Sequence record: MZ501074
Source: Escherichia phage HildyBeyeler
Strand: one strand, 5' to 3'
Length of the DNA stretch: 64,000 nucleotides
Position numbers and translations under genes: made by a program
The notes under the pieces: generated by a model
Databases searched by the model: none
Seen by the model: the letters and a program-made list of their open reading frames with translations, nothing else
Told to the model about the DNA's origin: nothing
Shown here: piece by piece, positions 2,789 through 32,835 of the stretch
How the letters are laid out: every line of letters starts with the position of its first letter
Numbering within the stretch: the stretch's first letter is position 1

Positions 2789-3295
2789 TTACACCTTAAG
2801 TTGTTGTAGGGCTTTACACATTTCAAGATCTGGACTAAATTCTAGCATATAGCTAACAGCCATTAAATCTTGAAGGTTTATTCCAGTTCTACCGTTGACT
2901 ATAACCGTTGGATACTGGTACATCATAGCACCAGCGTCATCCAGCACACACCAATGTTTGAGCTTATGCTTTTCAACGAAGCGAAGAACAGAATTACCCC
3001 TAGATAGCCCACCACCAGTAAAATCCGTTGTACCAAGAAAACGATCAATAAGATCTAATCTGGTCATAATCTGAACGTTCTCCATCTCATTCCTGACAGA
3101 GAACCATGAAGATACCCCAACAATCATTATTGGAGAAGGACGAATAAAGTCCTGAAAAGCCTTGAGAAGCGGCTTAAAAACCCAGTCACTTCCAAAGAAA
3201 ATCTTTTCATCATCAGGTGCATGATGGTGGGAGATGCTCGAATTAAGCACCCCATCGATGTCTAGAAAAATAATTGGAGTATTACTTATTTCCAT
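2789..3295 (-). CDS. HAD-superfamily phosphatase-like protein
   Basis: N-terminal IIFLDIDGVLN (DxDG HAD motif I). Confidence 0.5.
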   Translation of the reverse strand: MEISNTPIIFLDIDGVLNSSISHHHAPDDEKIFFGSDWVFKPLLKAFQDFIRPSPIMIVGVSSWFSVRNEMENVQIMTRLDLIDRFLGTTDFTGGGLSRGNSVLRFVEKHKLKHWCVLDDAGAMMYQYPTVIVNGRTGINLQDLMAVSYMLEFSPDLEMCKALQQLKV

Positions 3296-3464
3296 TTCTG
3301 TTCCTTTCTAAGAACGTATCATACTCAACCGTATCAACATATATGACACCATAGTCATCGGATTTATAGTCCATTTCCCATAGCTCACATCGATAGCACC
3401 AACTACCATCCGCCCATACAAATATATCATCGGGATGTGTATACACAGATTTAACTATGGACAT
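3282..3464 (-). CDS. hypothetical small protein
   Basis: ORF track; overlaps neighbours by a few nt. Confidence 0.4.
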   Translation of the reverse strand: MSIVKSVYTHPDDIFVWADGSWCYRCELWEMDYKSDDYGVIYVDTVEYDTFLERNRNGNK

Positions 3465-4279
3465 ATTTGTTTTCCCGGCATATAAGGTCTACCCTCTAGA
3501 TGAGCTTCTACACGAGCAATAAAACCAGGATCACTGAAAGCATCTACTGCACCTTTACTCCAGTAAGGAATACCACGATCTTCCAGTTGGTACATATCAC
3601 TACGAGTCATACCTTGATAGCCTGGTTTCGACGCTAGGGCACTATCATAGTAGTTAACTACCATAAGTTTCGCAGCAGTCCGATTAAGAACAGGGAATAG
3701 TTCCCAGTAGAAGTTAATTACTTGGTTAGAGCAACCAACTACAACGATCATATCTTGACTGGTAATACCATCAAAAATATTGTACATTTCTGCGTACGCT
3801 GGAGCATGCTCACCAAAAAAGATTACATTAGGTTTAACCCATTTATAATCATCTGGGTCAATAGAGTTATACCCAACATCAATAACCCGTTTATTACTAC
3901 TATTGTAGCTATCAGCTACAACAACCTCTTTTAAATATCCGTGAATGTGCAGAATATCACTATGTGGAACGCCAGCACGCTCAATAAGGTCATCAACGTT
4001 GGTAGTCAAGTTTACTACTTGACCCGGATATTTCTTATACCATTCACCAATACGCAAGTGTGCAAGATTAGGTTCAACAGTTTCTAACTCTTCACGCCGC
4101 TTGTTGTAAAACATATGGGTTTTATGATAAAAGTTACCACGAAAGGCGTGAATATTACATACTTCTTCTAGATCATAATCATCCCACAGTGCTTTACCAC
4201 TAGCAGTATCGGTACGAAAAGCTCGTACACCACTTTCAACGCTCAAACCTGCACCGCTAATAATAATTAATCTACGCAC
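3455..4279 (-). CDS. Sir2-family NAD-dependent protein (sirtuin-like)
   Basis: GAGLSVESG near N-terminus, TTNVD, HG and VVVGCS motifs in sirtuin order. Confidence 0.65.
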   Translation of the reverse strand: MRRLIIISGAGLSVESGVRAFRTDTASGKALWDDYDLEEVCNIHAFRGNFYHKTHMFYNKRREELETVEPNLAHLRIGEWYKKYPGQVVNLTTNVDDLIERAGVPHSDILHIHGYLKEVVVADSYNSSNKRVIDVGYNSIDPDDYKWVKPNVIFFGEHAPAYAEMYNIFDGITSQDMIVVVGCSNQVINFYWELFPVLNRTAAKLMVVNYYDSALASKPGYQGMTRSDMYQLEDRGIPYWSKGAVDAFSDPGFIARVEAHLEGRPYMPGKQICP

Positions 4280-4473: not shown

Positions 4474-4648
4474 AAAGTTTCTCCTCTAGTCCCATAATAC
4501 GATTTTCATAAGAAGCACGCAACTTTTCAATTGCCAGCGCACGCACTGTAACCTCATTAGAATTAATAGCTAACTGGGCCAGATCTTCTGTTTCCATACG
4601 TCCGTTGTAAATTAAGCGATATTTAAGGTGTTTCACATTCTTGGTCAT
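4442..4648 (-). CDS. hypothetical protein
   Basis: ORF track frame; start moved to internal ATG 4648 preceded by GGAG. Confidence 0.4.
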   Translation of the reverse strand: MTKNVKHLKYRLIYNGRMETEDLAQLAINSNEVTVRALAIEKLRASYENRIMGLEEKLYGLLESESKK

Positions 4649-5021
4649 TATTAAACTCCACTGCAACTGTTTCTAGGTCTTCGTCAAAAAAACTAGAGTA
4701 TGTATCTTTAAGATACTGTTTAATACTCCAAGTAATATCTTCGTATCCATCTGGACTACGTTGGTATACTTTTAACACTCTATTATACACAAATTCAAGA
4801 TTACATTTTACTTCATCTCTGTCTTCATCAAACAAGCAATATGGGTTATATGGCGATACATCTAGATTTGTTTCCACCCAATCACCAATAACGGTGGGGT
4901 ATCCAGCACCATCTATATGAGAGTAATCACCTGTGGCAGCAAAGACAGCCTCAGCAATATCATCCACGCCCAGATGGAAATCACCACATGTAGATTCAAC
5001 TATATAGGGCTTTAATTCCAT
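4623..5021 (-). CDS. hypothetical acidic protein
   Basis: ORF track; immediately downstream of nrdD, no radical-SAM CxxxCxxC so not NrdG. Confidence 0.5.
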   Translation of the reverse strand: MELKPYIVESTCGDFHLGVDDIAEAVFAATGDYSHIDGAGYPTVIGDWVETNLDVSPYNPYCLFDEDRDEVKCNLEFVYNRVLKVYQRSPDGYEDITWSIKQYLKDTYSSFFDEDLETVAVEFNNDQECETP

Positions 5022-5120
5022 ATCTTTCTCCTCTCAAATTTATAAATCTATTATACATAAATTTTTAGCTGAAAGCAAATAAAATAAAAGCCAGGTCGAC
5101 TAGCAACCCGGCTGATTAGC

Positions 5121-6947
5121 TTACTTAAGATTTAAGTGTTTTACTCTACCAAGAACTTCTTTTTGTTTCCCAGAATTGAAAGGCCTACTGCTAGGGGATC
5201 CCAAGTACCCGCAAACCCTACGTGTAACCTCTATTTCTTCAGACCCACAACTCGGACATACAAACCCACGTTCAGAGGCAACAGATTCACCCATATACCC
5301 ACAGTTGAAGCACTCATCAATTGGTATATTAACACCAATATAATGGCTACATTCTAGCCCCTTATCCACCACATACTCAAGAGCTTTGTGGAACTTTTTC
5401 ATTTGAGGTAGTTCCACAAATGATATATTACCACCATTAGCTATTTTGGTAAAATGAGCCTCGTACTCAAATTTAGTATCTGGGGCTACCTTCTCTCTTA
5501 CGTCCAAATGGTGACTATTAGTGAGATAGCCTTTATCTGTTAGCCAAGAATACTCTGGGAATCTACGTTCTAGTAATTTATTAAAACGATTACATAGAGA
5601 CTCACTAGGAGTAGCGTATAAGCTAAATCCAAGATTAGTCTCATTAGCTTTAACTTCGCAACGATTTTTTAGGTGAGTAAGAACTTCTTCTGTAAATTCA
5701 ATACAATCCCTATGGGTTTGTGGTAGACCAAACATTATTTGGCACATCTCATAGACCCCAATGTATCCAAGAGATACAGAAGATCTACCCTCAAAAATAG
5801 GCCATACATACTCTTCCCCATCTAAACGCACACCAAAACCACCGTGCATATAAAGAATAGGGGCTTGTTTAGCCTTAACTTTCTTCAGTCTGTTTAAGAA
5901 GAAGTCATGCGCTTCAAAAGCCTCATCCACATATTTGTCTAGAATATCCCAGAAATCTTCAAAAACCCCATCTGCCTCAGCAGCAACCATAGGTAGATTA
6001 ATAGACACTACACCTAAATTATTGCGCCCTGCAATTTCTCCGGAGGGGATAGCAGATAAAAAGCTACGACAACCCATAGGTGCTTTAAAATCACCAGTAA
6101 CAGCTACAACTTTCTCATAGCTTAAATAGTCCGGGTACATACGGGTAGCAGAACACTCAAGTGCTAGCTGTTTTATATCGTAGTTAGGATCGCCTGGATT
6201 TTTATTTAACCCTTCTTTAACTGAGAATACTAGTTTAGGGAAGATAGGGGTTGACTCAGCAGCACCTAAACCTTTAATACGGTTTTGGAGGATGGCTTTC
6301 TGAATCATCCTTTCCTCCCACTCCTGTCCTAGCCCAAAGCCAAGCGTAACAAAAGGAGTCTGTCCATTAGAGTTAAATAATGAATTAGTTTCATACTCTA
6401 GGGCTTGGAATGCGTCATAACACTCTTTTTCAGTGAGTTCAGTAGCATATACAGCAGCTTTCCTTTCATCCTTGAGCCAACGTAGACCACGACCCAGGTG
6501 CTTATCATAAGACTTTCTGACATAAGGGGCTAAAACCTCATCGATACGATCAATAGAAGTGCCACCATACTGAGCACCAGATACTTGGGCAATAATCTGA
6601 GCAGTGATTGCACATGCAGTAGTTATGGATTTAGGAGTTTCAATATTTGCATTACCAATTTTAGTACCATTCTTCAGCATGCCACCAAGGTCTACTAAAC
6701 AACAGTTAGTGTATCCCTGTGCCCTGTAATCCATATCATGGATGTGTATTTTACCTAGATTATGGGAGTCTAATAGATGTTTAGGTAATTCTTGTGCTAC
6801 TAAATACTTGTTGATTTCTCCAGCTAATAAGTCTCTTTGGGTATGGAACATCTCACTAGGCTTATTAGCATTATTATGTTGTAAGTCCTTATCAGCAGTT
6901 AGAGTGAGCAGGCCTTTGCAATTCTCAATTAATTCATTCTCTGTCAT
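5121..6947 (-). CDS. nrdD: anaerobic ribonucleoside-triphosphate reductase (class III RNR)
   Basis: 608 aa; C-terminal CxxC..CxxC zinc ribbon followed by RVCGY glycyl-radical motif. Confidence 0.9.
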   Translation of the reverse strand: MTENELIENCKGLLTLTADKDLQHNNANKPSEMFHTQRDLLAGEINKYLVAQELPKHLLDSHNLGKIHIHDMDYRAQGYTNCCLVDLGGMLKNGTKIGNANIETPKSITTACAITAQIIAQVSGAQYGGTSIDRIDEVLAPYVRKSYDKHLGRGLRWLKDERKAAVYATELTEKECYDAFQALEYETNSLFNSNGQTPFVTLGFGLGQEWEERMIQKAILQNRIKGLGAAESTPIFPKLVFSVKEGLNKNPGDPNYDIKQLALECSATRMYPDYLSYEKVVAVTGDFKAPMGCRSFLSAIPSGEIAGRNNLGVVSINLPMVAAEADGVFEDFWDILDKYVDEAFEAHDFFLNRLKKVKAKQAPILYMHGGFGVRLDGEEYVWPIFEGRSSVSLGYIGVYEMCQIMFGLPQTHRDCIEFTEEVLTHLKNRCEVKANETNLGFSLYATPSESLCNRFNKLLERRFPEYSWLTDKGYLTNSHHLDVREKVAPDTKFEYEAHFTKIANGGNISFVELPQMKKFHKALEYVVDKGLECSHYIGVNIPIDECFNCGYMGESVASERGFVCPSCGSEEIEVTRRVCGYLGSPSSRPFNSGKQKEVLGRVKHLNLK

Positions 6948-7137
6948 TGATTATTTCCTCAATAAACTTTATAGCTACTTTTGGTTCAATATTGAAGAAT
7001 TCCGTAGCGCCGTCAAAATCTTTGTACTGGCAATTCTGCTCTTTAAAGTAGTTATGGGCTAATTTTTCTATTCGAACTGCACTACTATATTCTCCAATTT
7101 CAAATACTTTAATTTTTTCGGCATTACTCTTCTCCAC
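6934..7137 (-). CDS. hypothetical protein
   Basis: ORF track; first gene of leftward operon. Confidence 0.45.
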   Translation of the reverse strand: MEKSNAEKIKVFEIGEYSSAVRIEKLAHNYFKEQNCQYKDFDGATEFFNIEPKVAIKFIEEIINDRE

Positions 7138-7318
7138 AGAATTTTCACACCTATTATACTAAACATTATCCACTATGTCAATTAAAATTTTCTTTCGCCA
7201 CCTAATACTGTAATATTCCGCGTATAAATAAATGATTATCTAATACCATACATTTCCCGTTAAAAGCAAGCAAATTTTTTATTTAAATGCAATATCATAG
7301 GCTTATTTAAAATTGTAG

Positions 7319-7347: not shown

Positions 7348-7423
7348 ATATTTGTAAGTTGATAAACAAGATCTCTTTGTTGATCCTCTGTTAGAAGCGA
7401 AGTACACTATAGGAGTGTTATGT

Positions 7424-8176
7424 ATGGGAAAAGCACGTCAAAAAAGAGAGAACCGCAATGGTTCAAGAAAGCGTGGCAACAAATATGAGAATAACGTAAT
7501 TCAGGCTGATTTTTCTAATGATTACGCTAACCCAGTTGCTAAATCCCTAGTAGGTAAAAACCGAGAGCAAAAATCATATATCAATATGATCAAGAACAAC
7601 ACAGTGACTGTGGGTATCGGTGAGCCAGGTACAGGTAAAACCTTTATCCCGTCTGTTCTTGCAGCTCAGGAACTCGTAGACATTCACTCAGATATTGAGC
7701 AAGTGATCCTCGTACGTCCTAATGAACCTCTAGGTAAGTCTCTTGGTATGCTTCCTGGTGATCTAGCAGAAAAGCTAGAGCCTTGGTTGGAGCCAATAGC
7801 TGATGGTATGAAATGGGCCATCGGTGATCATGCCTATAGGGGATACGTCGAACGTCAGAAAATTAAATTTTTGGCTATCGAACATGCTCGTGGCAGAACT
7901 TTCAACAACTCCTATGTAATTGTCGATGAAGCTCAGAATATTTCCGTTGAGGCAATGATTTGTCTCCTAACTCGTGTAGGACAAGACTGCCGTTTAATTA
8001 TCTGCGGAGATATAGCTCAGAAAGACATTAAAGGTGACTCAGGTCTAGCACTCCTTATGGAAGTCTATGAGAAATACGAAAATGCCCCCTTCTCAATGAT
8101 CGAATTGATTGATAACGTTCGTTCTGCTGAGTCTAAAGCATTCTACGATATTTTTAAAGACATGGGGAAGGTGTAA
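7424..8176 (+). CDS. phoH: PhoH-like ATPase
   Basis: Walker A GEPGTGKTF and VDEAQN; ATG 7424 with AGGAG 8 nt upstream (track start 7415 is GTG). Confidence 0.8.
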   Translation: MGKARQKRENRNGSRKRGNKYENNVIQADFSNDYANPVAKSLVGKNREQKSYINMIKNNTVTVGIGEPGTGKTFIPSVLAAQELVDIHSDIEQVILVRPNEPLGKSLGMLPGDLAEKLEPWLEPIADGMKWAIGDHAYRGYVERQKIKFLAIEHARGRTFNNSYVIVDEAQNISVEAMICLLTRVGQDCRLIICGDIAQKDIKGDSGLALLMEVYEKYENAPFSMIELIDNVRSAESKAFYDIFKDMGKV

Positions 8177-8375: not shown

Positions 8376-8519
8376 GTGGCCAAAAACTAGACTGACAACA
8401 CAGAAGGCCTGGGTATGAAAGTACTCGGGCCTTTTCTATCAGAAAATTTTATTTGCCAAATGACTGAGAATAAAGTAAACTATTTCCTAAATCCTGATAA
8501 CTATAAAAAGGAAAGCCAA

Positions 8520-10853
8520 ATGAGCCATCGCATTGAAAAGGTAATTAAACGTGACGGTACTGTAGAAGACTTTGCTCCTGAAAAACTCAATGGTTGGGCA
8601 GAGTATGGTTGCAAAACAGTTGATGTAAGTTGGTCTGCCATTACTATGGCTGCTCAAAAAACTCTGCCTAAAGGGGTTGTAGATTCCGACACTCTGATGG
8701 ATGCGTTAATTAAAGCTGCTGAAAGTCTTATCAAAGATAATCCAGCATACGACGTGCCAGCAAAGGAATTACGTCTTGCGCAGATGCGTAAACGCCTTTA
8801 TGATTCCTTTGAACCACCTTCTCTACGCTTCTTCCACGATCATATGGTTAGTGTAGGTGCATGGGAAGACATGAGTGCATGGATTACCGATGAGCAATTT
8901 GAAGCTCTGAATCAGGTTATCGACCATGATCGTGACCGTCTTTTCACTAGTGGAGGACTGAAACAATTCTTTGATAAGTATTCCCGTCGTAACATAGCCA
9001 CCGGTGAAATTTATGAAACCCCGCAGTTTGCCTACATGGGTATGGCAATGGCGATGCTATCTCAACCTAACTGGACAATTCTCGATGCAATCGACCTATA
9101 CAACGCAATGTCACTCCACAAAATCAACGTTCCTACGCCGCCACTGGTTGGTCTGCGCTCTAGTGATCGTGGATTTGCTAGTTGTTGCCTCGTTGATTCC
9201 ACTGACACATTGGATTCAATCGACACAGCCGAGCACATCGTTTTTAAAATGGTCGCAGCCAGAGCGGGAATCGGGTATCATCTTGAAAGCAGATCAATTG
9301 CTGATCCGGTGCGAAATGGGGCATTCCCGCATTCCGGAAAACTGCCATATTATCGACACATTGACCGCTCAGTAAAGGCCAACACTCAGCAAACTCGTGG
9401 TGGTTCTGCTACAGTGTCTTATCCATACTTTGATCCTGAAATCATTCAGTTGATGCAGGTTAAGCAACAACGTGCTACAGACGAGAATAAAATCGATAAG
9501 ATGGATTATTCTCTGAGCTTCAACAATCTTTTGTTAAAACGTTATCTTAAAAATGAAGATATTACGCTAATGTCATACTTCTATGCTCCGGAAGTTCATG
9601 AAGCGTTTTATAGTGATGACGAGGCTAAATTTGAAGAAATCTATGTGGCAGCGGAGAAACGTGTGGCATCTCTTACAAAGATCGACCACGAAGGAAAAAC
9701 AGTTCCAGCAGCTCCTAAAGTCTCTGCAAAAGAAATCCTAGATACTTGGCTGCGTATCCGAATGGAAACAGGACGTATGTATGCCCACCACATTGGGGAA
9801 TCTAATCGTCACGGTAACTTCCTTGATCCGATCCGTATGACAAACCTTTGTGTTGAAATTACTCAGCCTACACGCCCGTTCCATCATATCACGGAACTGT
9901 ATAAAACGAAAGAGCAGCTTGACCAAATGAAGCCGGAGGATATTGGGGAAGTATCTCTATGTAACTTAGGTGGTGTTGTACTAGGACGCATGGAATCTCT
10001 AGCTGAGTGGGAAAAAACTTGCTACATCCTCCTGAAATTCGTTGATACAATTATTGAAATTCAGGATTATCCGTTCCCAACTATGGAATATACGGCTAAG
10101 AAACGTCGTAATGTTGGTATTGGCCTGATGAACGCAGCAGGTGCAATGGCAGCAGAAGGTCTGGCTTATGAAGGTATTGAAGCCCGTAACTGGATTCACC
10201 GTGAGGCTGAAAAACTGTCTTACTTCCTGCATAAAGCCTCTGTACGCCTAGCTAAAGAACAGGGTGCATGTGAGTGGTTTGATCGTACTAAACCATCTAA
10301 AGGAATTCTGGTAATCGACACATACAAGAAAACTGTTGATGAGCTGGTATCCGTAGGTCTAGAAATGGATTGGGAATCTCTGCGTGCAGATATTCTGAAA
10401 TACGGTATGCGTAACTCTGTTCTGACTGCGCAGATGCCTGGAGAAAGTTCCTCTGTACTATTGGGTGTTACCAACTCAATTGAGCCACCTCGTAGGATTG
10501 TATCTATCAAGGGTAGTGCAGTGAATAAAGTAATTGCAATTGCTCCGGGTGCAACTGATTGGGATACTCTCATGAGCTATAAACTGGCCTATGATATTGA
10601 TCGCACTGAGTGGATCAAATGGAACGCCGTTTACCAAAAATTCTTGAGCCAGTCATCAAGTTTCCAGATGTATTATGATTACTCTAAATTCGAGAATGAA
10701 ATCATTCCTGGCCCAGTAGTAGTTCGTGACTTTATGACTGCGGTTAAGTATGGTATAAAGACCTGGTATTATGCTAACTTTAACACTGCGAATGGTGGAG
10801 GAGCTGGTGAAGAGGCGGCAACAGGTTGTGCATCAGGCGGTTGTCAGTTATAA
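8520..10853 (+). CDS. nrdA: ribonucleotide reductase large subunit (class Ia)
   Basis: ATP-cone KRDGTVEDF, NLCVEI active-site loop, C-terminal CASGGC tail; ATG 8520 has AAGGAAA RBS (track start 8415). Confidence 0.9.
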   Translation: MSHRIEKVIKRDGTVEDFAPEKLNGWAEYGCKTVDVSWSAITMAAQKTLPKGVVDSDTLMDALIKAAESLIKDNPAYDVPAKELRLAQMRKRLYDSFEPPSLRFFHDHMVSVGAWEDMSAWITDEQFEALNQVIDHDRDRLFTSGGLKQFFDKYSRRNIATGEIYETPQFAYMGMAMAMLSQPNWTILDAIDLYNAMSLHKINVPTPPLVGLRSSDRGFASCCLVDSTDTLDSIDTAEHIVFKMVAARAGIGYHLESRSIADPVRNGAFPHSGKLPYYRHIDRSVKANTQQTRGGSATVSYPYFDPEIIQLMQVKQQRATDENKIDKMDYSLSFNNLLLKRYLKNEDITLMSYFYAPEVHEAFYSDDEAKFEEIYVAAEKRVASLTKIDHEGKTVPAAPKVSAKEILDTWLRIRMETGRMYAHHIGESNRHGNFLDPIRMTNLCVEITQPTRPFHHITELYKTKEQLDQMKPEDIGEVSLCNLGGVVLGRMESLAEWEKTCYILLKFVDTIIEIQDYPFPTMEYTAKKRRNVGIGLMNAAGAMAAEGLAYEGIEARNWIHREAEKLSYFLHKASVRLAKEQGACEWFDRTKPSKGILVIDTYKKTVDELVSVGLEMDWESLRADILKYGMRNSVLTAQMPGESSSVLLGVTNSIEPPRRIVSIKGSAVNKVIAIAPGATDWDTLMSYKLAYDIDRTEWIKWNAVYQKFLSQSSSFQMYYDYSKFENEIIPGPVVVRDFMTAVKYGIKTWYYANFNTANGGGAGEEAATGCASGGCQL

Positions 10854-10954: not shown

Positions 10955-11470
10955 TTGATAACACAAGATGAATTAAAAAGGATTCTGGAGTATAATCCAG
11001 ATGAAGGAACATTTACTTGGTTAAATAACCAGGAAGTACACAATAAAGTAAGGGGACTACCTGCTGGCTGTTTAAAACCCCACTCAGTAGATCCTAACCG
11101 AAAAGACTTAGTAATACAAATCAAGGGTAAGAAGTATCCCGCACAAAATATTGCTTTCCTGTACATGACAGGAAACTTACCTAAAGTTATGGTTGACCAT
11201 ATAGATGGAGATTCACTAAACTATAAGTGGGCTAATCTAAGAGAAGCAGACTGGCAGTTAAATAGTCAAAATAGAAAAACTAGTAAAAACAATATATTGG
11301 GTACTAAGAATATTCGGAAGAAAGGGTCTGGATTTCAAGTTAGAAAATCCATTAACGGAAAAGAATATGTGAAAACTCTCCCAACTCTAGAAGAGGCGAT
11401 AGAGTATCGAGATTCTTTAATCCTCTCTATAACCAAAGATCCAACACTACTTAGAAACACAGATAAATAG
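10955..11470 (+). CDS. HNH homing endonuclease (free-standing, between nrdA and nrdB)
   Basis: VDHIDGD...N..WANLR HNH motif; TTG start with AAGGAG RBS. Confidence 0.75.
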   Translation: MITQDELKRILEYNPDEGTFTWLNNQEVHNKVRGLPAGCLKPHSVDPNRKDLVIQIKGKKYPAQNIAFLYMTGNLPKVMVDHIDGDSLNYKWANLREADWQLNSQNRKTSKNNILGTKNIRKKGSGFQVRKSINGKEYVKTLPTLEEAIEYRDSLILSITKDPTLLRNTDK

Positions 11471-11478: not shown

Positions 11479-12624
11479 ATGACAACTTTACTTAACTTAA
11501 ACTGGGATCATACCAATAAAGATCTATTTCTCGGTGATTCTCTTGGTATTGCAGATTATGTACGAGTAGCCCATCCAGAGCTGGAAAGGCTGGCGTTATT
11601 AGCTCGCTCTCAATTCTGGACTGAAACTGAAATCAGTCTGGAAGCAGATAAGAAACAATGGCCTAATCTCCCACGAGAAATTCAGGAAATTACCCTCCTG
11701 AATTTAGCATGGCAGACTCAAACTGATTCCTTTATCAGTCGAGCGCCTGAAGCAGCTATTATGCCACTTGTAAGTCGTCCAGAATTGGAAGGTATGCTAA
11801 AGCAGTGGAGCTACTTCGAAGACCTGCATAGTCGCGCCTATAGCAATATTATTCGTAATGTGCTGACTGATCCAGCAGAATTTATTGATTCTGTAACCAA
11901 AAACCAGGAAGCATTCGCACGCATCGCTGATTCTGTTGAACTGTTCGATGAACTGTATCAGTTAGGTCAGTATTTCCTCGCAGTACGCGATCATCGTGGT
12001 GACAATACATATCCAGAAACTGAGTTCCCTGAAGTTAAACGTGAAACTCAGGCTAAACTATTAGACGCTTACTTTGCGATCTATGGTCTGGAAGCAATGC
12101 AGTTTTACGCATCCTTTGCATGTACTTTTGCTCTAGCAGAGAACGATATTCTGCAAGGTATTGCTAAGAACCTGCAATTAATCGCTAAAGATGAGGCTCT
12201 GCACACCCAGATGTCTAAAGCAATCATCCAGATTATGTTCCAGCAGTTTGACAAAGATCTGGTAGATGAAGCAGTGGCTAAAGCACCAGCACAGCTCCTG
12301 AAAACTCTGAAAACTGAAATTGAATGGGGTCATTTCATTTTCAAAGGTCGTAGTCTGATTGGCTTGAATGCAGAACTTCTAGAAGAATATCTGTACTTTG
12401 TGGGGCGTAATGCATTTATGCACATCGGTGTAGAATGGCCTAGTCATTTACCAGTAATCACTAAGAACCCCATTCCGTGGATCATGAACTGGCTGGATAC
12501 CACTTCTTTACAGCCTGCTCCACAAGAAATCCAGATTGGTGCAGCCTACCGTGTAGGTCAGGTAACTGAGACCTCTACTGATACTCTGAAAGATCTGGGT
12601 AATGAATTTGGAGATTTCTTATGA
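11479..12624 (+). CDS. nrdB: ribonucleotide reductase small subunit
   Basis: 381 aa immediately after nrdA/HNH; ferritin-like E/H-rich helices. Confidence 0.8.
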   Translation: MTTLLNLNWDHTNKDLFLGDSLGIADYVRVAHPELERLALLARSQFWTETEISLEADKKQWPNLPREIQEITLLNLAWQTQTDSFISRAPEAAIMPLVSRPELEGMLKQWSYFEDLHSRAYSNIIRNVLTDPAEFIDSVTKNQEAFARIADSVELFDELYQLGQYFLAVRDHRGDNTYPETEFPEVKRETQAKLLDAYFAIYGLEAMQFYASFACTFALAENDILQGIAKNLQLIAKDEALHTQMSKAIIQIMFQQFDKDLVDEAVAKAPAQLLKTLKTEIEWGHFIFKGRSLIGLNAELLEEYLYFVGRNAFMHIGVEWPSHLPVITKNPIPWIMNWLDTTSLQPAPQEIQIGAAYRVGQVTETSTDTLKDLGNEFGDFL

Positions 12625-15685: not shown

Positions 15686-15723
15686 ATACTTCATAAATTG
15701 ATAAACAAAAAGGAAAATAAATA

Positions 15724-16239
15724 ATGGCTAAGCAGAAAAACGCAAAAACTCAAGCAGCAACTACAGTTAAAACTTTCCCTCAGACTGAGGCTAACCGCAA
15801 AGCTCGTCTGGAACGCCACCTGCGCAAGCATCCTACTGATGCTCAAGCTGCACAGGCACTGAATCGTCCGGCTCCGATTCGTCAAAAGCCGAAGGCTAAG
15901 AATGCTACTCGTTCTGTAACCCGCCTTGTGACCTATGTACAGGGTTATGGCCACAAATCTGTTCCAGTAACACTGAGTTTCAATGCTGGAGCTGAATTGT
16001 TCCCTCGTAATGGCATGGCCATGAAAGATTACGAGAAAGCAGTTAACCAGAAACGCAAGCCAACGGCAGATGTGCTTCGTGACACTCATGGACAGTTTGG
16101 CTCTGTTAAGCCAAATATCTTTGGCGTAGAGTATAGTAAAGATAGTGTTCGTGCTCTGTGTTACGGTGTAGGCATTAAGTTCACTGGTGATTCTGCTCGT
16201 AAATCTGCTAAACCAGCTCGTAAACGTAAAGCGAAGTAA
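15724..16239 (+). CDS. hypothetical basic protein
   Basis: ORF track; promoter and RBS upstream; antisense ORF 15691-16266 rejected. Confidence 0.5.
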   Translation: MAKQKNAKTQAATTVKTFPQTEANRKARLERHLRKHPTDAQAAQALNRPAPIRQKPKAKNATRSVTRLVTYVQGYGHKSVPVTLSFNAGAELFPRNGMAMKDYEKAVNQKRKPTADVLRDTHGQFGSVKPNIFGVEYSKDSVRALCYGVGIKFTGDSARKSAKPARKRKAK

Positions 16240-16280
16240 TAGATAGGAGGGGCGAAAGCCCCTCATATTTTGGAGAAACT

Positions 16281-17501: not shown

Positions 17502-17554
17502 TAGATCAAATTTAAACAAATTCAAATCTCAAACTTCATATAAGGAAGCAAATA

Positions 17555-18193
17555 ATGACTACTCGTATTTCTAAAACTCGCGCTCTGGCAACTATCAAAT
17601 CTCTGGAAGCTAAAATCCGTAAAGCTGCTGAACAGCAGGTTCTGATCGCTGTTGGTGAAGGTAAGGATAAAAATAAGGTTGTAGTTGGCGCTGCAATCGA
17701 AGTAGACGATCTGTCCGCCCGTATTAAGGCAGATTTCCAATCTCTCCTGGATATGATGTCCCAGCGTGATCGTATCAAAGCTGCTCTGATTAAGAGCAAT
17801 GCGGAAACAATCGTTGAGATTGGCTCTCGTAAGATGACTGTTGCGGAAGCAATTGAAGCTAAGCGTTCTATGGAACTTAAAGCCCAACTGCTGGCTAACA
17901 TGCGTAAGCAGTTCCAAGCCGCTACGGCTAAGTTTAATACGCAGAAAGCACAGTTTGATGCTAAATATGAGCGTTTGCAGGATAGCATGGCTACCCGCGA
18001 TAAGAAAACTTCCGAAGATGAAGTTAAAATGCAGCTCAACCTGCTGGAACTCAAGAATACTCCATTCTTGATTGATCCGCTGGAACTGGAGAAGCTGATT
18101 AAGCAGCATGACGAGGAATACCAGGACTTTGCAACAAATGTTGACTTTGTTCTGTCCGAGTCTAACGCCTCTACCTTCATTGAAGTAGAGTAA
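17555..18193 (+). CDS. hypothetical coiled-coil protein
   Basis: ORF track; AAGGAAG RBS; overlapping minus ORFs rejected. Confidence 0.5.
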   Translation: MTTRISKTRALATIKSLEAKIRKAAEQQVLIAVGEGKDKNKVVVGAAIEVDDLSARIKADFQSLLDMMSQRDRIKAALIKSNAETIVEIGSRKMTVAEAIEAKRSMELKAQLLANMRKQFQAATAKFNTQKAQFDAKYERLQDSMATRDKKTSEDEVKMQLNLLELKNTPFLIDPLELEKLIKQHDEEYQDFATNVDFVLSESNASTFIEVE

Positions 18194-18576
18194 TAATTTA
18201 AAAGCTAGTAAATCGGTAGACGAAAGCCCAAGCATCTTACCTCGCAGCAGCGGTTGAAATACGAGGTTAAATAAGACCGCTGACCATACTATAAAGTATA
18301 ATCTATTGGAGATTATGTTTATTACATCAGACATTTAATCTGACACGTAAAAACAAAGCGTCGTTGATATTACCGACACAACTTCAAAGATCAACATTTA
18401 AGTATGAAAGCTGAAAAGTTTAAAGAACTCAAACTTCTAAACTTCTAAAGCTAAAAGATGCAAAGTATTCGTTGATGATTCAAACCCTAGATCAAAGGTA
18501 CATGGCTCATAAGATATGGCCTGTGGCGCCTCTAGGCTGTTTATCGGTTTACTAGTTTCACAATTTAAAAATGTAT

Positions 18577-18635: not shown

Positions 18636-19457
18636 ATGGGTAAATTACAAAAACAAATACTACCATATATAGATTATATCCGAGAAATTATAGAGTATAA
18701 TCCCTATACTGGTAAATTATTCTATAAGCCTAATAAATATAAGAATAAAACTTGGCATACTTTATATGCTGGGAGAGAAATATGTAGTAAGAACTCTGAT
18801 GGGTACATCAGAGTTAGTTTGCTCTTAGATAATAAACCCACAATTATTTATGGACACCGAATAGCGTGGCTCCTTCACTATGGGGAGGAACCACCTGCTA
18901 TGATTGATCATATAAATACTATACCGTGGGATAATAGAATTATTAACCTAAGAGAGACAAATTTTAAGTTAAACAGACTTAATACTAACAAAACGGTAGG
19001 TGTAGAGCTGCTGCCAGAAGGATTTGTGTACAGCATTACATTAGGTGAAAAGTTTTTTGTATCCCCCGGCTTCCCCACTTTCGAACAAGCTAAAGTGGAA
19101 AGAGAAAAACTAGTAAATGGTTTATGTAATGCAGAAATTGGGAAGCAGACCAATATTCTAATAGACGATGTTAGAGATTTACCTGAAATGTCCATTATTT
19201 GTCGTACAGTTATAGGTGCGCTGGAACTATCAGATGTGTTTAGTTTCACAGGATCCTATTTATTTATGGACTCAGATTTAGGAGATTCAGAGGTACAAGG
19301 AAAAGATTTATTAGATCATATACTATTATTAGGTCAAAGACCCCTAAAAGTGATTCTAGTAACATCTAATCCTGTTGACGCAGAGTACATGAGAGGTACT
19401 CTTACGTCTTATGGATACCGAGAAAATCCCAATAGATTAGAATATGATCTATTTTAA
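18636..19457 (+). CDS. HNH homing endonuclease
   Basis: GHRIAWLLHYGEEPPAMIDHIN...NLRETN HNH signature. Confidence 0.7.
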   Translation: MGKLQKQILPYIDYIREIIEYNPYTGKLFYKPNKYKNKTWHTLYAGREICSKNSDGYIRVSLLLDNKPTIIYGHRIAWLLHYGEEPPAMIDHINTIPWDNRIINLRETNFKLNRLNTNKTVGVELLPEGFVYSITLGEKFFVSPGFPTFEQAKVEREKLVNGLCNAEIGKQTNILIDDVRDLPEMSIICRTVIGALELSDVFSFTGSYLFMDSDLGDSEVQGKDLLDHILLLGQRPLKVILVTSNPVDAEYMRGTLTSYGYRENPNRLEYDLF

Positions 19458-20638: not shown

Positions 20639-20861
20639 ATATTAATAAATTAGAGAACAGCGGGCCGATTACGCTGAGTGCAGAATCCAAACCGGAGTGC
20701 ATTGAATAGAGTCGGTGGGTTAGTTGTAAAACTAGTACACAGTGGGCGGCAATCCCGGTTAGTGGCTAGAACGTGTAAAATGGGGCGTCTGAAACCTCTC
20801 CCCTAAACTCTTCTCTAGTTTATAAATAGTGGGGTGTGGAAATCACTTATGTAGTAACACT

Positions 20862-20933
20862 GCCGATCTAGTATAAACGGTATTATCAAGCCGTAACTGG
20901 TGGAAGATGTAGGTTCGAATCCTACGATCGGTA
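20862..20933 (+). ncRNA. tRNA-like element (acceptor plus canonical T-arm, poor anticodon arm)
   Basis: GCCGATC/GATCGGT acceptor pairing and GTAGG-TTCGAAT-CCTAC T-arm. Confidence 0.3.
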
Positions 20934-21434
20934 AGAACTGGATAACTGGTGCTTTTAACGTAAAAGCTTCCGAGGTTAGTTGCGCACTGCCTAAACCACG
21001 CGGTAGTTGGTTCCAGACTAACCAACCAGTCTGCTGAATAGTTTTATTACGATTTAACTATGTCCAGGCTAAAGAAGAACTTTAGAAGGTATTCTAGGTG
21101 GTGAAGTTTTTCCTCCATATCGGAGTAGTTTTTCAAGCTACCAACAAAGTGGGAAATGCTGACATGAGAGATGTCACTAATGGTGCACAATAGCACAGGT
21201 AATTCGCGATAACTCCTGTTGAGTAGCAGCAAAAGGCGGGAAGTCATGACCCCAAGCCTAACCGAGTCCTCAATATACCGCAGGACATAACCACTAAGTC
21301 ACCCTGACTTAAACTGGAAAATAATAGACGTTACTGTATTTTGTCTTGAAATACTTAATGAGTGAGACTTATGACTCTCCCGGTATCGTCTGTATTTTTA
21401 AGAGTTTTTACGAGAGTTCTTAAAAATACTTAAA

Positions 21435-21509
21435 CGGGGTGTAGTCTAAGGGAGAGGCAGGAGTCTTCTAAATTCCTTTATGCAGGTTCGAATCCTGTCA
21501 CCTCGGCCA
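21435..21509 (+). tRNA. tRNA-Arg (anticodon TCT)
   Basis: Hand-folded cloverleaf; 7-bp acceptor, loop CTTCTAA, T-loop TTCGAAT, encoded CCA. Confidence 0.7.
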
Positions 21510-21543
21510 ATTTTATTAACTGTAACTAAAACAAAGGAAATAT

Positions 21544-22491
21544 ATGTTTAATACTAAAAATATGAAAGAACTGACTTCTGAGCAAAAAGTAATTCGCACT
21601 ATTAAACGTTGGGGTATTGGTTCTGTAGTTGGTTTAGCAGGTTTAATCCTAGCTTTTAATTCATATACTATTGTTTCTGATGGTACAGTTAAAACCCAAA
21701 CATTTCTGGGTAAAGTAGATCCTAACCCAGTATTACCTGGTTTCCATCTTGTAAACCCATTTGCATCTTTCGATACTTTTAGTACAAAAGATATTGCTGT
21801 AAAATTAGATAAACTTCAGGTTCCTAGCCAGGATAAGTTTAAATCCACTGTTGACCTGACTGTTATGTTGCAGTTTGATGGTTCTAAGGCACCGATCAAC
21901 CGTATTAATGCAGGTACTCAGGATCAGGCGTTAGACAAATATGTTACTGAAAAATTACTGTCTACCATCCGTGAGTTTGGTAAGTCTGTACCTAAAGCAC
22001 AAGATTTGTTTGATGCTAAAATTCAAGCACAATTACAAACTGCAATTCAACAGGAAGTTGAAGAGTATGCACGCCCTTATGGTTACACAGTTAAGCAAGT
22101 GTTCCTTCAGGATATTACATTGCCACCGGTAATTATGGAACAGGTACAGAATACCAAAGTTCGTGAAGAACAAGTTAATGCTGCGAAAGCTGAATTGGCT
22201 CGTGTTGAACAAGAAGCACAGCAGAAGGTTAAACAAGCAGAAGCAGATCGTGAAGCTCGTAACAACCAAGCTATTGCAAACGAACGTGATGCAGATGCTA
22301 AACTGTATGCAGCTAAGAAAGAAGCCGAAGCTAACGCCGCTCTGCAACGTACTATTACTCCTGAGATGATTCGCTGGAAACAACTAGAAGTTGAAATGAC
22401 TCGTGCTCAGAAGTATCAAGGTGGTGTGCCTCAGACTGTAGTAGGTACTGGTTACGATGGTCAAATGATCATGGATATGCGTAACAAGTAA
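21544..22491 (+). CDS. SPFH/Band-7 (prohibitin-like) membrane protein
   Basis: N-terminal TM helix, Band-7-like core, long A/E/Q-rich coiled coil. Confidence 0.6.
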   Translation: MFNTKNMKELTSEQKVIRTIKRWGIGSVVGLAGLILAFNSYTIVSDGTVKTQTFLGKVDPNPVLPGFHLVNPFASFDTFSTKDIAVKLDKLQVPSQDKFKSTVDLTVMLQFDGSKAPINRINAGTQDQALDKYVTEKLLSTIREFGKSVPKAQDLFDAKIQAQLQTAIQQEVEEYARPYGYTVKQVFLQDITLPPVIMEQVQNTKVREEQVNAAKAELARVEQEAQQKVKQAEADREARNNQAIANERDADAKLYAAKKEAEANAALQRTITPEMIRWKQLEVEMTRAQKYQGGVPQTVVGTGYDGQMIMDMRNK

Positions 22492-22515
22492 TAGTTACAC
22501 GTAATCTTCGAAGTA

Positions 22516-22556
22516 AGCCCTGTGTTCCCTGGAGAGCGCAGGGCTTTTCTGTTTTA
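22516..22556 (+). terminator. rho-independent terminator
   Basis: AGCCCTG...CAGGGCT stem followed by TTTTCTGTTTT. Confidence 0.65.
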
Positions 22557-22717
22557 AGGTAGAGGATAAGTGTGTCTCTTTGGTCACTCAGCTATGACAA
22601 ATACTTTACACTATATCACATTGAAAATCAAGTGGGGATAACAATTTTGGGGTCTATCCACTTACCTGCTACCCTTAAGCATCCTGTTATTTTCCTCTAA
22701 AAAGTTAAAAAATTCAA

Positions 22718-22746
22718 TTGCTTGAATGCTAAATTCTCTGTATAAT
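22718..22746 (+). promoter_or_regulatory. sigma70-type promoter
   Basis: TTGCTT-17-TATAAT. Confidence 0.6.
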
Positions 22747-22778
22747 ATACTTATAAATTTGAGAGAGAGGAATCTAGT

Positions 22779-23297
22779 ATGACTGTTGATGAACTAACAG
22801 AACATCTCTTATCTAGAGGGTTTGATACAGATAAGTATCATTGCTGGTTAAGTCCGGAAGGATGGCTAACAGTCCCGTTGTATGACTTCTCTGGGATGTT
22901 GAGAGGCTATCAGACTTATAATCCTTCTGCTCCAAAAGGTCATGGTAAGTGCCCCTTTGAAGCTAAATATTTTACTTATTCAACTACACAGTGTGTATGG
23001 GGATTAGAAACTCTCAATGGAGATGAAAAAGTAGTATTGATTGCTGAATCTGTATTTAAGGCAGTTGCGTTACATAACGCTGGTTATCCAGCCCTGGCAA
23101 TGTTGGGTTCTTCCCCCGGAAAAGCATTGTTAAAGCAATTGAAATTATTACCTTTTAAATTGGTAGCTGTCGGAGATAATGATCCTGCGGGTGAAAAATT
23201 TGCTAGAAAATTAAACGGCTTTGTTTCTCCTGTAGATGTAGATGAGATGTCTACCGAAAACTTGAAAAATTTTCTTGCTATGAAGCTAAATTTCTAA
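22779..23297 (+). CDS. Toprim-domain protein
   Basis: VVLIAES (Glu) and VGDNDPAGE (DxD) Toprim motifs. Confidence 0.45.
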   Translation: MTVDELTEHLLSRGFDTDKYHCWLSPEGWLTVPLYDFSGMLRGYQTYNPSAPKGHGKCPFEAKYFTYSTTQCVWGLETLNGDEKVVLIAESVFKAVALHNAGYPALAMLGSSPGKALLKQLKLLPFKLVAVGDNDPAGEKFARKLNGFVSPVDVDEMSTENLKNFLAMKLNF

Positions 23298-23303
23298 TAT
23301 AAT
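23275..23303 (+). promoter_or_regulatory. sigma70-type promoter embedded in 3-prime end of CDS
   Basis: TTGCTA-17-TATAAT directly upstream of tRNA-Ser. Confidence 0.5.
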
Positions 23304-23317
23304 ATATTTATAAATTC

Positions 23318-23406
23318 GGAAGAATAGCATAACGGTATTGCAGCAGATTGCTAATCTGTCGGTTTGAAATATAGCCTTGTGGGTTCGATTCCCACTTCTT
23401 CCGCCA
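23318..23406 (+). tRNA. tRNA-Ser (anticodon GCT), class II
   Basis: GGAAGAA/TTCTTCC acceptor, loop TTGCTAA, long variable arm, T-loop TTCGATT, CCA. Confidence 0.7.
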
Positions 23407-23412
23407 AATTCT

Positions 23413-23490
23413 GGTTCTCAAGCTCATATGGTATGAGCACCCAGCTCATAACTGGAAGGTACGTAGGTTCGAATCCTCGGGGAGCCACCA
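23413..23490 (+). tRNA. tRNA with CAT anticodon (Met or Ile2)
   Basis: Acceptor with two GU pairs, D-arm GCTC/GAGC, loop CTCATAA, CCA. Confidence 0.5.
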
Positions 23491-23509
23491 AATTAAATAA
23501 GGACAACTA

Positions 23510-23698: not shown

Positions 23699-23707
23699 GG
23701 AGACTAT

Positions 23708-23893: not shown

Positions 23894-23993
23894 TACCTGT
23901 GAAACTAAAAGATTATTATATTGGTTGGTTTGTGGGACTAGTAGTAGGATTTTCACTAGGCTATAATATGTATCAACTAATAAACTGATTACA

Positions 23994-32070: not shown

Positions 32071-32439
32071 ATGAAAGCGTATCAAAATCTTAAATCTGGC
32101 GTAATTAATATTGTTCATAATAATCAGATTATTCAACTGTACTCTAAAGATGGTGAACTTAAACAAAAGGTTCTAGTTGAAGATCTAGATGGTATCACAC
32201 CTCATTTTGACCCAGAATCCTTTCGTGAAGTCAAAGTGGAAGTCGCCCCTCAAATTGAAGGTGGTCAACACCTAAATGTCAATGTGTTAAGTCGTGATCA
32301 GCTTTTGGATGCGCAGAAACATCCTGAAAAATACCCTCAATTAACTATCCGTGTTTCAGGGTACGCTGTGCGTTTTAACGCACTGACGCGTGAACAGCAG
32401 AACGACGTTATTAGTCGTACATTTACTCAGGCGATGTAA
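32071..32439 (+). CDS. grcA: autonomous glycyl-radical cofactor (GrcA/YfiD-like)
   Basis: C-terminus [11 protein letters not shown]...[20 protein letters not shown] matches the PFL/YfiD glycyl-radical signature; ATG 32071 after AGGAG. Confidence 0.8.
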
Positions 32440-32520: not shown

Positions 32521-32835
32521 GTGGATCGAGCATTAAGACGTCATCACCGGCAACGTGTAAAGAACAACCGCAAGAAGTATTGGACAGTCTTCCCACATGA
32601 AGAAAGCCCTAAACGGTTAGGTATTATCACTACTACTCCTTGTATCTGTTCTTGTTGGATGTGCGGGAACCCTCGCAAACACTTTAAGAATAGTAAAGCA
32701 GGGATGAAAACCTCGGAGATTAGGAAAATGGAAGCAATGATTACGGATATTTCAAATGATGAATTTGATGGCTTCGTAGGATTCGGGGAAGATATTAGCT
32801 CGGACTGTTTCGAAGATGAGCTCCCAGGTCTATGA
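32521..32835 (+). CDS. hypothetical protein
   Basis: ORF track (GTG start after AGGAG). Confidence 0.4.
   Translation: MDRALRRHHRQRVKNNRKKYWTVFPHEESPKRLGIITTTPCICSCWMCGNPRKHFKNSKAGMKTSEIRKMEAMITDISNDEFDGFVGFGEDISSDCFEDELPGL

What the first reader, a model, noticed from the sequence alone, without database searches (positions are those of the whole stretch)
5121..6947. Class III RNR (nrdD) with no recognisable nrdG activase beside it
The nrdD gene carries the RVCGY glycyl-radical motif, yet the downstream gene (4623-5021) and the rest of the window show no radical-SAM CxxxCxxC protein. The phage may depend on the host activase or encode an unrecognisable one.
Basis: partly seen in the sequence, partly recalled or inferred. 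Interest (0 to 1): 0.55.

Follow-up and report, generated by a model that had tools for sequence, protein, structure and literature searches.

The report
Phage anaerobic reductase lacking its activase
A T5-like phage carries an intact oxygen-sensitive ribonucleotide reductase gene (nrdD) but no gene for the enzyme that switches it on, so it most likely borrows the host's activase; this gap is real but already documented for T5-type phages.

Summary
ORF 5121-6947(-) is a bona fide class III ribonucleotide reductase: Pfam NRDD E=6e-158, NCBIfam equivalog above cut-off, and 52% identity to E. coli NrdD. The thiyl cysteine, the zinc ribbon and the RVCGY glycine (G580) are all intact. No NrdG or radical-SAM homologue exists in any frame of the window. 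None exists in the complete genome of the closest relative either (Salmonella phage Tennessee, a T5-like Demerecviridae). The only CxxxCxxC string sits in a 104-aa T5-specific ORF whose first cysteine is not conserved. The 132-aa downstream gene has a single invariant cysteine.

The pattern is family-wide. All 33 T5-like NrdD loci examined lack nrdG within 10 kb, while 37 of 47 other viral loci have it just downstream. It is also already published (Dwivedi 2013; RNRdb 2009).

nrdD is under strong purifying selection (dN/dS 0.01-0.03). Its glycyl-radical loop is unusually host-like, 26/32 identical to E. coli against about 17 expected. nrdG is present in 5426/5426 complete E. coli genomes. Trans-activation by host NrdG is therefore the best explanation, but it is inferred, not shown.

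The phage also encodes a second orphan glycyl-radical protein (GrcA-like, 32071-32439). Ordinary and known; low interest.

The parts
5121..6947 (-). nrdD, class III (anaerobic) ribonucleoside-triphosphate reductase, 608 aa, no N-terminal ATP-cone
   Evidence: ORF. Pfam NRDD 5.9e-158. NCBIfam equivalogs above cut-off. 52% identity to E. coli NrdD residues 98-706. dN/dS 0.012-0.032 against 8 close alleles.
5205..5219 (-). RVCGY glycyl-radical motif (R577-Y581); G580 codon at 5208-5210, aligned with E. coli G681
   Evidence: The 12-mer VTRRVCGYLGSP is identical to E. coli NrdD.
5247..5312 (-). C-terminal zinc-ribbon cysteines C546, C549, C564, C567 (CxxC...CxxC)
   Evidence: Invariant in the alignment with T5-type and E. 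coli NrdD. Weak zinc-ribbon Pfam hits at 545-587.
6069..6071 (-). C293 in PMGCRSFL, aligned with E. coli C384 (active-site thiyl-radical cysteine)
   Evidence: Alignment; invariant column. The role of E. coli C384 / T4 C290 is from established knowledge.
6702..6704 (-). C82 in NCCLVDL, aligned with E. coli C175 (second active-site cysteine)
7153..7181 (-). Promoter-like site with perfect sigma-70 consensus (TTGACA-17 nt-TATAAT) upstream of nrdD
   Evidence: 12/12 match; sequence read. No FNR-box-like site between 6900 and 7450 even with 2 mismatches.
6934..7137 (-). 67-aa ORF, a C-terminal fragment of a T5orf172/MUG113-type homing endonuclease, overlapping the nrdD start by 14 nt
   Evidence: Pfam MUG113 4.6e-6 and T5orf172 1e-4. 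phrog_681 endonuclease positions 479-540 of 576. Full-length endonucleases are annotated at this position in relatives.
5079..5113 (-). Intrinsic-terminator-like hairpin (10-bp stem, 6 GC pairs) plus T-run, 8 nt after the nrdD stop
4623..5021 (-). 132-aa acidic protein of unknown function (phrog_11748), restricted to T5-like phages; not an activase candidate
   Evidence: No Pfam or NCBIfam family. 24 homologue clusters, all on roughly 100-120 kb T5-like contigs. Only C12 is invariant. AF2 pLDDT 55.
32071..32439 (+). GrcA/YfiD-like autonomous glycyl-radical ('spare part') protein, 122 aa; a second orphan glycyl-radical protein
   Evidence: Pfam Gly_radical 3.6e-18. 74% identity to the E. coli GrcA C-terminal half, with [14 protein letters not shown] identical. 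NCBIfam TIGR04365 at 121.5 bits, below the 170 cut-off. Start placed after tRNA-Met 31982-32057 and by the PHROG match from residue 26.
32521..32835 (+). 104-aa basic/acidic small protein (T5 ORF053/T5.055 family, phrog_4499) holding the window's only CxxxCxxC string (nt 32641-32664)
   Evidence: Only CxCxxC is invariant. AF2 model is all-helical at pLDDT 57. No family match.
7415..8176 (+). phoH, divergent from nrdD
   Evidence: Pfam PhoH 2.5e-61.
8415..10853 (+). nrdA, class Ia RNR large subunit
   Evidence: Pfam Ribonuc_red_lgC 4.5e-117.
11479..12624 (+). nrdB, class Ia RNR small subunit
   Evidence: Pfam Ribonuc_red_sm 2.4e-36.

Best explanation
The window comes from a T5-like (Demerecviridae) phage of Salmonella/E. 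coli. It encodes a complete, selectively maintained class III ribonucleotide reductase (NrdD) but no activase. The consensus promoter-like site and terminator-like hairpin suggest it is transcribed as its own early unit. The proposed mechanism is as follows. In anaerobically growing hosts, NrdG is already present. NrdG is a radical-SAM [4Fe-4S] enzyme, encoded in the host nrdDG operon, and it works with flavodoxin and S-adenosylmethionine. Host NrdG recognises the phage NrdD C-terminal glycyl-radical domain, whose core VTRRVCGYLGSP is identical to the host's. It abstracts the H atom from G580. The activated phage NrdD then reduces NTPs to dNTPs, using formate as reductant, to feed phage DNA synthesis when the phage class Ia enzyme (NrdAB) cannot work. 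The phage's GrcA-like protein is expected to be activated in the same way by host PflA. It would keep pyruvate formate-lyase, the formate source, running after oxygen damage. Shown here: gene identity, intact catalytic residues, purifying selection, absence of any phage activase, the host-like loop, and universal host nrdG. Inferred: that host NrdG performs the activation, and the GrcA-formate link.
For: nrdD identity and intact motifs. No NrdG/PflA homologue in any frame of the window or of the whole Tennessee genome, with the T4 positive control at 5e-48. Family-wide pattern: all 33 IMG/VR loci whose NrdD is at least 57% identical to this one lack NrdG within +-10 kb, whereas 37 of 47 more distant viral NrdD loci have nrdG, typically immediately downstream. 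tblastn counts give NrdD in 2917 phage records against NrdG in 2273. About 460 records carry a T5-type NrdD (at least 60% identity), and the Salmonella-named records show 399 against 126. Function is retained without nrdG: dN/dS 0.012-0.032. Two alleles only 60% identical both keep all catalytic residues. The loop is host-like: 26/32 identical to E. coli (T5-type allele 25/32), against 18/32 for T4, which carries its own NrdG although its NrdD is overall closer to E. coli. A regression on 23 NrdG-positive viral NrdDs predicts 17-19/32, so the T5-like residuals are +4.7 to +8.9 with a residual SD of 1.95. Host supply: nrdG is in 5426/5426 complete E. coli genomes. Precedent: T4 Y06I, a phage glycyl-radical protein, receives its radical from host PFL-AE (PMC8683613). 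Formate as the class III reductant: PMC3267527. Literature already records nrdD-only phages including T5 (PMC3653736).
Against: There is no experimental evidence for activation of a T5-type NrdD by host NrdG, and I found none in the searchable literature. T4-like and most other phages keep their own nrdG. This suggests host NrdG is not always sufficient. From memory, Young et al. 1994 showed that T4 gene 55.9 is required for T4 NrdD activity, but that paper could not be retrieved. T5 shuts off host expression and degrades host DNA early (established knowledge), so only pre-existing NrdG would be available. The nrdD promoter-like site is constitutive-looking, with no FNR box, so expression is not visibly tied to anaerobiosis. 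The loop-similarity argument rests on few independent lineages: T5-like alleles against T4-like and assorted viruses of unknown hosts. It could therefore partly reflect phylogeny. The remainder of this particular phage's genome was not seen, only that of a 98%-identical relative.
Confidence: 0.8

Rival explanations
1. A nrdG gene lies in the part of this phage's genome outside the 64-kb window.
For: The window covers only about 58% of a roughly 110-kb genome (mapping). T5-like genomes are mosaic, with variable insertions.
Against: The complete genome of the closest relative has none in any frame. The part not covered by the window holds replication and structural genes. Phage-database counts indicate that the roughly 460 T5-type genomes lack NrdG. 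Published surveys list T5, SPC35 and EPS7 as nrdD-only.
Confidence: 0.03
2. The phage encodes a cryptic, non-canonical activase among its many unknown-function ORFs, for example the 132-aa gene after nrdD or the 104-aa Cys-rich ORF after the GrcA-like gene.
For: More than half of the window's ORFs have no family assignment. ORF 32521-32835 carries a CxxxCxxC string and sits next to a glycyl-radical gene.
Against: The 132-aa protein has one invariant Cys, so it cannot ligate a [4Fe-4S] cluster in the radical-SAM manner. In the 104-aa family only CxCxxC is invariant. That protein is 91-104 aa with a disordered acidic tail and an all-helical low-confidence model, with no beta/alpha core. No other open frame of at least 40 codons that matches a plausible gene has CxxxCxxC, in the window or in the relative's genome. 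nrdD is flanked by its own promoter-like and terminator-like sites. All known glycyl-radical activases are radical-SAM enzymes (established knowledge).
Confidence: 0.03
3. Phage NrdD is activated by a different host glycyl-radical activase (PflA or one of its paralogues) rather than by NrdG.
For: The phage also carries a PFL-type glycyl-radical protein that must use PflA. A few T5-like NrdD alleles have RVSGY, the PFL-type motif, instead of RVCGY (L020 and L034).
Against: The loop around G580 is NrdD-type and nearly identical to the host NrdD, which is the NrdG substrate. It is unlike the PFL/GrcA loop [11 protein letters not shown]. NrdG is described as the specific activase of NrdD (PMC2795772).
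Confidence: 0.05
4. nrdD is a non-functional or decaying relic that is never activated, because the phage relies on its class Ia NrdAB.
For: There is no activase. nrdD sits in a recombination and homing-endonuclease hot spot. NrdAB is present.
Against: dN/dS is 0.012-0.032 with dS up to 0.75. The ORF is full length in all 33 T5-like loci. All catalytic, zinc and radical residues are invariant between alleles only 60% identical. The gene has a strong consensus promoter-like site and a good ribosome-binding site.
Confidence: 0.04

Closest known systems
Bacteriophage T5 / T5-like NrdD (Demerecviridae: T5, SPC35, EPS7, H8, Gostya9, S124 and others)
   Same: Same gene at the same position: divergent from phoH, then nrdA-nrdB. 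The protein is 98-99% identical in about 49 database records. The lack of nrdG is the same and is already noted in Dwivedi 2013.
   Different: This window carries the rarer of at least three nrdD alleles. It is only about 60% aa identical to the T5-type allele and about 71% to the Klebsiella T5-like allele, although the flanks are about 98% identical to a phage carrying the T5-type allele.
Bacteriophage T4 NrdD-NrdG
   Same: About 605-aa NrdD without an ATP-cone, the radical glycine at position 580, the same Zn-ribbon, about 50% identity. T4 also encodes a GrcA-like spare-part protein, Y06I.
   Different: T4 has its own nrdG 47% identical to E. coli NrdG, separated from nrdD only by the mobC endonuclease gene. 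Its Gly loop has diverged from the host's (TIRRTCGYLGNP, 18/32). The T5-like loop stays host-like at 26/32.
E. coli / Salmonella NrdD-NrdG (host class III RNR)
   Same: 52% identity over the catalytic core. C175, C384 and G681 equivalents and the VTRRVCGYLGSP segment are identical.
   Different: The host enzyme has an N-terminal ATP-cone (residues 1 to about 97), which the phage lacks, and is encoded in an operon with nrdG. From established knowledge, the host operon is FNR-regulated. The phage gene has a consensus sigma-70 promoter-like site and no FNR box.
GrcA (YfiD) of E. coli and Y06I of T4, activated by host PFL-AE
   Same: The phage ORF 32071-32439 has the same C-terminal glycyl-radical domain, 74% identical to GrcA. 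There is a documented precedent for a phage-encoded glycyl-radical protein that depends on a host activase (PMC8683613).
   Different: The N-terminal half is divergent, so the NCBIfam GrcA equivalog score is below cut-off at 121.5 against 170. Its function in T5-like phages is untested.

Membership tests
Class III ribonucleotide reductase, NrdD | Full-length match to NrdD profile HMMs above curated thresholds | tested here: met
   Pfam PF13597 at 527 bits (GA 26.2). NCBIfam NF006732 at 794.9 bits (cut-off 657) and TIGR02487 at 537 bits (cut-off 326).
Class III ribonucleotide reductase, NrdD | C-terminal glycyl-radical motif RVCGY with the radical glycine | tested here: met
   R577-V-C-G580-Y581, aligned with E. 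coli G681.
Class III ribonucleotide reductase, NrdD | Active-site cysteines (E. coli C175 and C384; T4 C79 and C290) | tested here: met
   C82 and C293 align with them and are invariant.
Class III ribonucleotide reductase, NrdD | C-terminal four-cysteine zinc ribbon preceding the Gly loop | tested here: met
   C546, C549, C564 and C567 are invariant.
Class III ribonucleotide reductase, NrdD | Cognate nrdG activase gene in the same genome (typical of the system, not of the protein family) | tested here: not met
   None in the window, none in the relative's whole genome, none within +-10 kb in 33 T5-like loci.
Class III ribonucleotide reductase, NrdD | Oxygen-sensitive glycyl radical and NTP reduction activity | not testable with these tools
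   Needs EPR, O2-cleavage and enzyme assays.
NrdG / glycyl-radical activating enzymes (radical SAM) | Sequence homology to NrdG or PflA in any ORF | tested here: not met
   Best E 0.25-2 at under 6 bits in 543 (window) and 926 (Tennessee genome) open frames; control at 5e-48. No radical-SAM Pfam family in any ORF scanned.
NrdG / glycyl-radical activating enzymes (radical SAM) | Conserved CxxxCxxC [4Fe-4S]/SAM motif | tested here: not met
   A single occurrence at nt 32641-32664. Its first Cys is not conserved in homologues, and the protein is 104 aa.
GrcA/YfiD autonomous glycyl-radical cofactor (for ORF 32071-32439) | C-terminal PFL-type glycyl-radical domain with RVSGYAV | tested here: met
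   Pfam PF01228 3.6e-18. 74% identity to E. coli GrcA residues 54-127, and 58% to the PflB C-terminus.
GrcA/YfiD autonomous glycyl-radical cofactor (for ORF 32071-32439) | Full-length equivalog score (NCBIfam TIGR04365) | tested here: not met
   121.5 bits against a cut-off of 170. Only residues 50-122 match.

The most novel reading that the evidence does not exclude
T5-like phages install the glycyl radical on their NrdD, and perhaps on their GrcA-like protein, with a phage-encoded factor that is not a recognisable radical-SAM enzyme, hidden among the unknown-function early ORFs. That would be a new class of glycyl-radical activator. A milder version is that the phage NrdD has been shaped as a molecular mimic of the host NrdD radical domain, making host nrdG a specific dependency factor for anaerobic (gut) infection.
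Probability: 0.03. Interest if true: 0.85.

Novelty: already known. Interest (0 to 1): 0.22.

Why it matters
T5-like phages are common in the gut and are used as biocontrol and therapy candidates against Salmonella and E. coli. If their anaerobic dNTP supply depends on host NrdG, then host nrdG becomes a host-dependency factor in anoxic niches. Host PflA would matter too, through formate and the GrcA-like protein. Resistance or reduced burst size could then arise from their loss. The host-like glycyl-radical loop of an activase-less phage NrdD, set against the diverged loop of T4, which brings its own NrdG, offers a simple natural experiment on activase-substrate recognition. None of this changes the basic picture. 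The gene, its family and the missing activase are already documented, and host activation is the default expectation.

Tried and rejected
1. Variant cysteine motifs were scanned in six frames: Cx4Cx2C, Cx5Cx2C, Cx2Cx4C and Cx2Cx5C. They gave only short or antisense frames and were not pursued.
2. Two Cys-rich ORFs on the opposite strand, 15691-16266(-) and 17522-18334(-), are Leu/Ser/Phe-rich, have no family match and lie antisense to the gene block. I judged them spurious.
3. AlphaFold2 models of the 104-aa and 132-aa ORFs had low confidence (pLDDT 57 and 55). No fold search was run because matches to such models would be meaningless.
4. An FNR-box search found 63 matches against 60 expected by chance, none near nrdD, so there is no evidence for anaerobic regulation.
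5. Literature searches for T5 nrdD function, or for cross-species NrdG activation, found nothing usable. Young et al. 1994 and Torrents et al. 2001 are not held.
6. My first attempt to read loci L002-L004 in Python failed because each file holds several records. This was later resolved, and the whole Tennessee genome was scanned.

Full report
**What the window is.** Megablast places the window in the T5-like phages (Demerecviridae) of Salmonella and Escherichia. The nrdD region is 92-95% identical to phages H8, Gostya9, phC11 and S124. A 24-kb central segment is 97.9% identical to Salmonella phage Tennessee (OZ075147.1, 109,999 bp). Mapping shows the window is collinear, in reverse orientation, with Tennessee 1-58,512 plus its right end. 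The window therefore holds roughly 58% of the genome.

**Checking the observation.** ORF 5121-6947(-) is exactly as described: 608 aa with an ATG start.
- It matches Pfam NRDD (E=5.9e-158) and Gly_radical.
- It passes two NCBIfam NrdD equivalog cut-offs.
- It is 52% identical to E. coli NrdD residues 98-706, so it lacks the N-terminal ATP-cone.
- The functional residues are all present: C82 and C293 (equivalent to E. coli C175 and C384), the four zinc-ribbon cysteines, and RVCGY with G580 (equivalent to E. coli G681).

The downstream ORF 4623-5021(-) is real. It belongs to an unknown-function family (phrog_11748) found only on T5-like contigs.

**Is there an activase?**
- A six-frame scan found a single CxxxCxxC in an open frame of at least 60 codons, at nt 32641.
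- phmmer and hmmsearch were run with all filters off, using E. coli NrdG, T4 NrdG and E. coli PflA as queries.
- They found nothing in the 543 open frames of the window, with best E 0.25-1.6 at under 6 bits.
- They also found nothing in the 926 open frames of the whole Tennessee genome.
- The same query detects T4 nrdG at 5e-48.
- Pfam scans of the nrdD neighbours and of every plausible ORF with three or more cysteines gave no radical-SAM family.

**Candidate 'unrecognisable' activases.**
- The 132-aa neighbour has only one invariant cysteine among ten diverse homologues. It cannot carry a three-cysteine [4Fe-4S] site.
- The CxxxCxxC-bearing ORF (32521-32835, 104 aa; T5 ORF053/T5.055 family) keeps only CxCxxC invariant. 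Its first cysteine is replaced by Ala in distant members.
- That ORF also has a disordered acidic tail and a low-confidence all-helical model.
- The AlphaFold2 model of the 132-aa protein was likewise low confidence, so no fold search was done.
- nrdD sits between a perfect sigma-70 consensus promoter-like site (TTGACA-17-TATAAT, 7181-7153) and a terminator-like hairpin 8 nt after its stop codon (5113-5089 plus a T-run).
- The next gene has its own -10-like element and ribosome-binding site. nrdD thus appears to have no operon partner.

**How general is the pattern?**
- In 80 IMG/VR loci encoding NrdD relatives with up to 10-kb flanks, all 33 loci whose NrdD is at least 57% identical to this one lack NrdG.
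- By contrast, 37 of the 47 more distant viral loci have nrdG, usually immediately downstream. Several of the ten exceptions end at a contig edge.
- In the GenBank phage collection, NrdD is found in 2917 records and NrdG in 2273.
- About 460 records carry a T5-type NrdD (at least 60% identity). The shortfall is concentrated in the host names typical of T5-like phages: Salmonella 399 against 126, Escherichia 1055 against 928, Klebsiella 346 against 265.

This is already in the literature. Dwivedi et al. [quoted passage not shown] They describe the T5/SPC35/EPS7 arrangement with phoH between the two RNR classes (PMC3653736). RNRdb counted 30 phage NrdD against 21 NrdG in 2009 (PMC2795772).

**Is the orphan nrdD functional?**
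- Against eight close alleles, dN/dS is 0.012-0.032 with dS up to 0.75.
- T5-like phages carry at least three divergent alleles: this one, a roughly 71% Klebsiella-phage allele, and the roughly 60% T5-type allele.
- The alleles compared (this one and the T5 type, aligned with E. coli) retain every catalytic, zinc and radical residue.

The gene is clearly maintained by selection, which implies that it is activated by something.

**Who activates it?** The 32-residue segment around the radical glycine is VTRRVCGYLGSPSSRPFNSGKQKEVLGRVKHL. This is 26/32 identical to E. coli NrdD, with the first 12 residues identical. The T5-type allele scores 25/32.

T4 brings its own NrdG, and its NrdD is overall slightly closer to E. 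coli, yet its loop is TIRRTCGYLGNPNERGFNLGKNKEIMHRVKHQ, only 18/32.

I regressed loop identity on identity over the rest of the protein for 23 distinct NrdG-positive viral NrdDs. This predicts 17-19/32 for proteins as diverged as the T5-like ones. They show 23-26/32, which is 2.4-4.6 residual SDs above expectation. This is suggestive rather than conclusive, because few lineages are independent.

Host nrdG is present in all 5426 complete E. coli genomes. There is also a biochemical precedent: T4 Y06I, a phage glycyl-radical protein, receives its radical from host PFL-AE (PMC8683613).

**Related feature.** The window also encodes a GrcA/YfiD-like spare-part protein (32071-32439), directly after the tRNA block.
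- It is 74% identical to the GrcA radical domain, with an identical [14 protein letters not shown] segment. There is no PflA homologue in the phage.
- Class III RNRs of this type use formate as reductant (PMC3267527).
- Formate comes from pyruvate formate-lyase, so a PFL-repair protein plausibly supports NrdD function. This link is inference.

**Verdict.** The case is an ordinary, previously reported property of T5-like phages rather than a new system. The alternatives are nrdG elsewhere in the genome, a cryptic activase, another host activase, or a dead gene. Each is given a few percent. Direct proof needs the genetic and biochemical tests listed under next steps.

Noticed in passing
window 32071-32439 (+): GrcA/YfiD-like autonomous glycyl-radical 'spare part' protein, immediately after tRNA-Met. 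It is a second glycyl-radical protein with no phage activase. It is annotated as 'pyruvate formate-lyase' in phage Tennessee and has unknown function in PHROGs (phrog_1209). It may sustain formate supply for NrdD.
   Followed up: partly
window 5027-7230, compared with OZ075147.1 (L002/L003) and L009: nrdD is an allele-replacement hot spot. The flanks are about 98% nt identical to phage Tennessee, but the nrdD segment does not align at high identity. This NrdD is only about 60% aa identical to the T5-type allele and about 71% to a Klebsiella T5-like allele. About 49 database records carry this allele, against about 411 with the others.
   Followed up: partly
window 6934-7137 (-): A 67-aa ORF that is a C-terminal fragment of a T5orf172/MUG113-type homing endonuclease. 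It overlaps the nrdD start by 14 nt. Relatives carry full-length endonucleases here. It is probably the footprint of the element that drives the allele exchange.
   Followed up: partly
window 10955-11470 (+): HNH endonuclease gene inserted between nrdA and nrdB. It is absent at this position in phage Tennessee. Further HNH genes lie at 18636-19457, 27487-28062, 44193-44729 and 60273-60812(-).
   Followed up: partly
window 7153-7181 (-) and 5079-5113 (-): A perfect sigma-70 consensus promoter-like site (12/12) upstream of nrdD and a terminator-like hairpin right after it. No FNR-like box is nearby, so nrdD looks constitutively early rather than anaerobically induced.
   Followed up: partly
window 32521-32835 (+): A small T5-family protein (T5 ORF053/T5.055) with a basic N-terminal helix (RALRRHHRQRVKNNRK), an invariant CSCxMC..P motif and an acidic tail. 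Its function is unknown. It is probably a small metal-binding or nucleic-acid-binding protein.
   Followed up: partly
L020 and L034 (IMG/VR T5-like loci), NrdD C-terminus: Some T5-like NrdD alleles have RVSGY (the PFL-type residue before the glycine) instead of RVCGY.
   Followed up: no
window 20861-32057 (+): A block of 21 tRNA genes interspersed with small ORFs, typical of T5-like phages.
   Followed up: no
window 3455-4279 (-), 2789-3295 (-), 18636-19457 (+): A Sir2-family protein and a HAD_SAK_2 (RNA-repair-type HAD) protein lie downstream of the nrdD block. There is also an HNH protein fused to a cREC_REC (cyclic-phosphate-processing receiver) domain.
   Followed up: no
L049, L050, L055, L067 (IMG/VR loci): A few non-T5-like viral contigs also have NrdD without NrdG within the available flank: the full 10 kb for L049, L050 and L055, and about 6.8 kb downstream for L067. 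Orphan nrdD is therefore not confined to T5-like phages. This agrees with the Aeromonas-phage nrdBAD cluster described by Dwivedi 2013.
   Followed up: no
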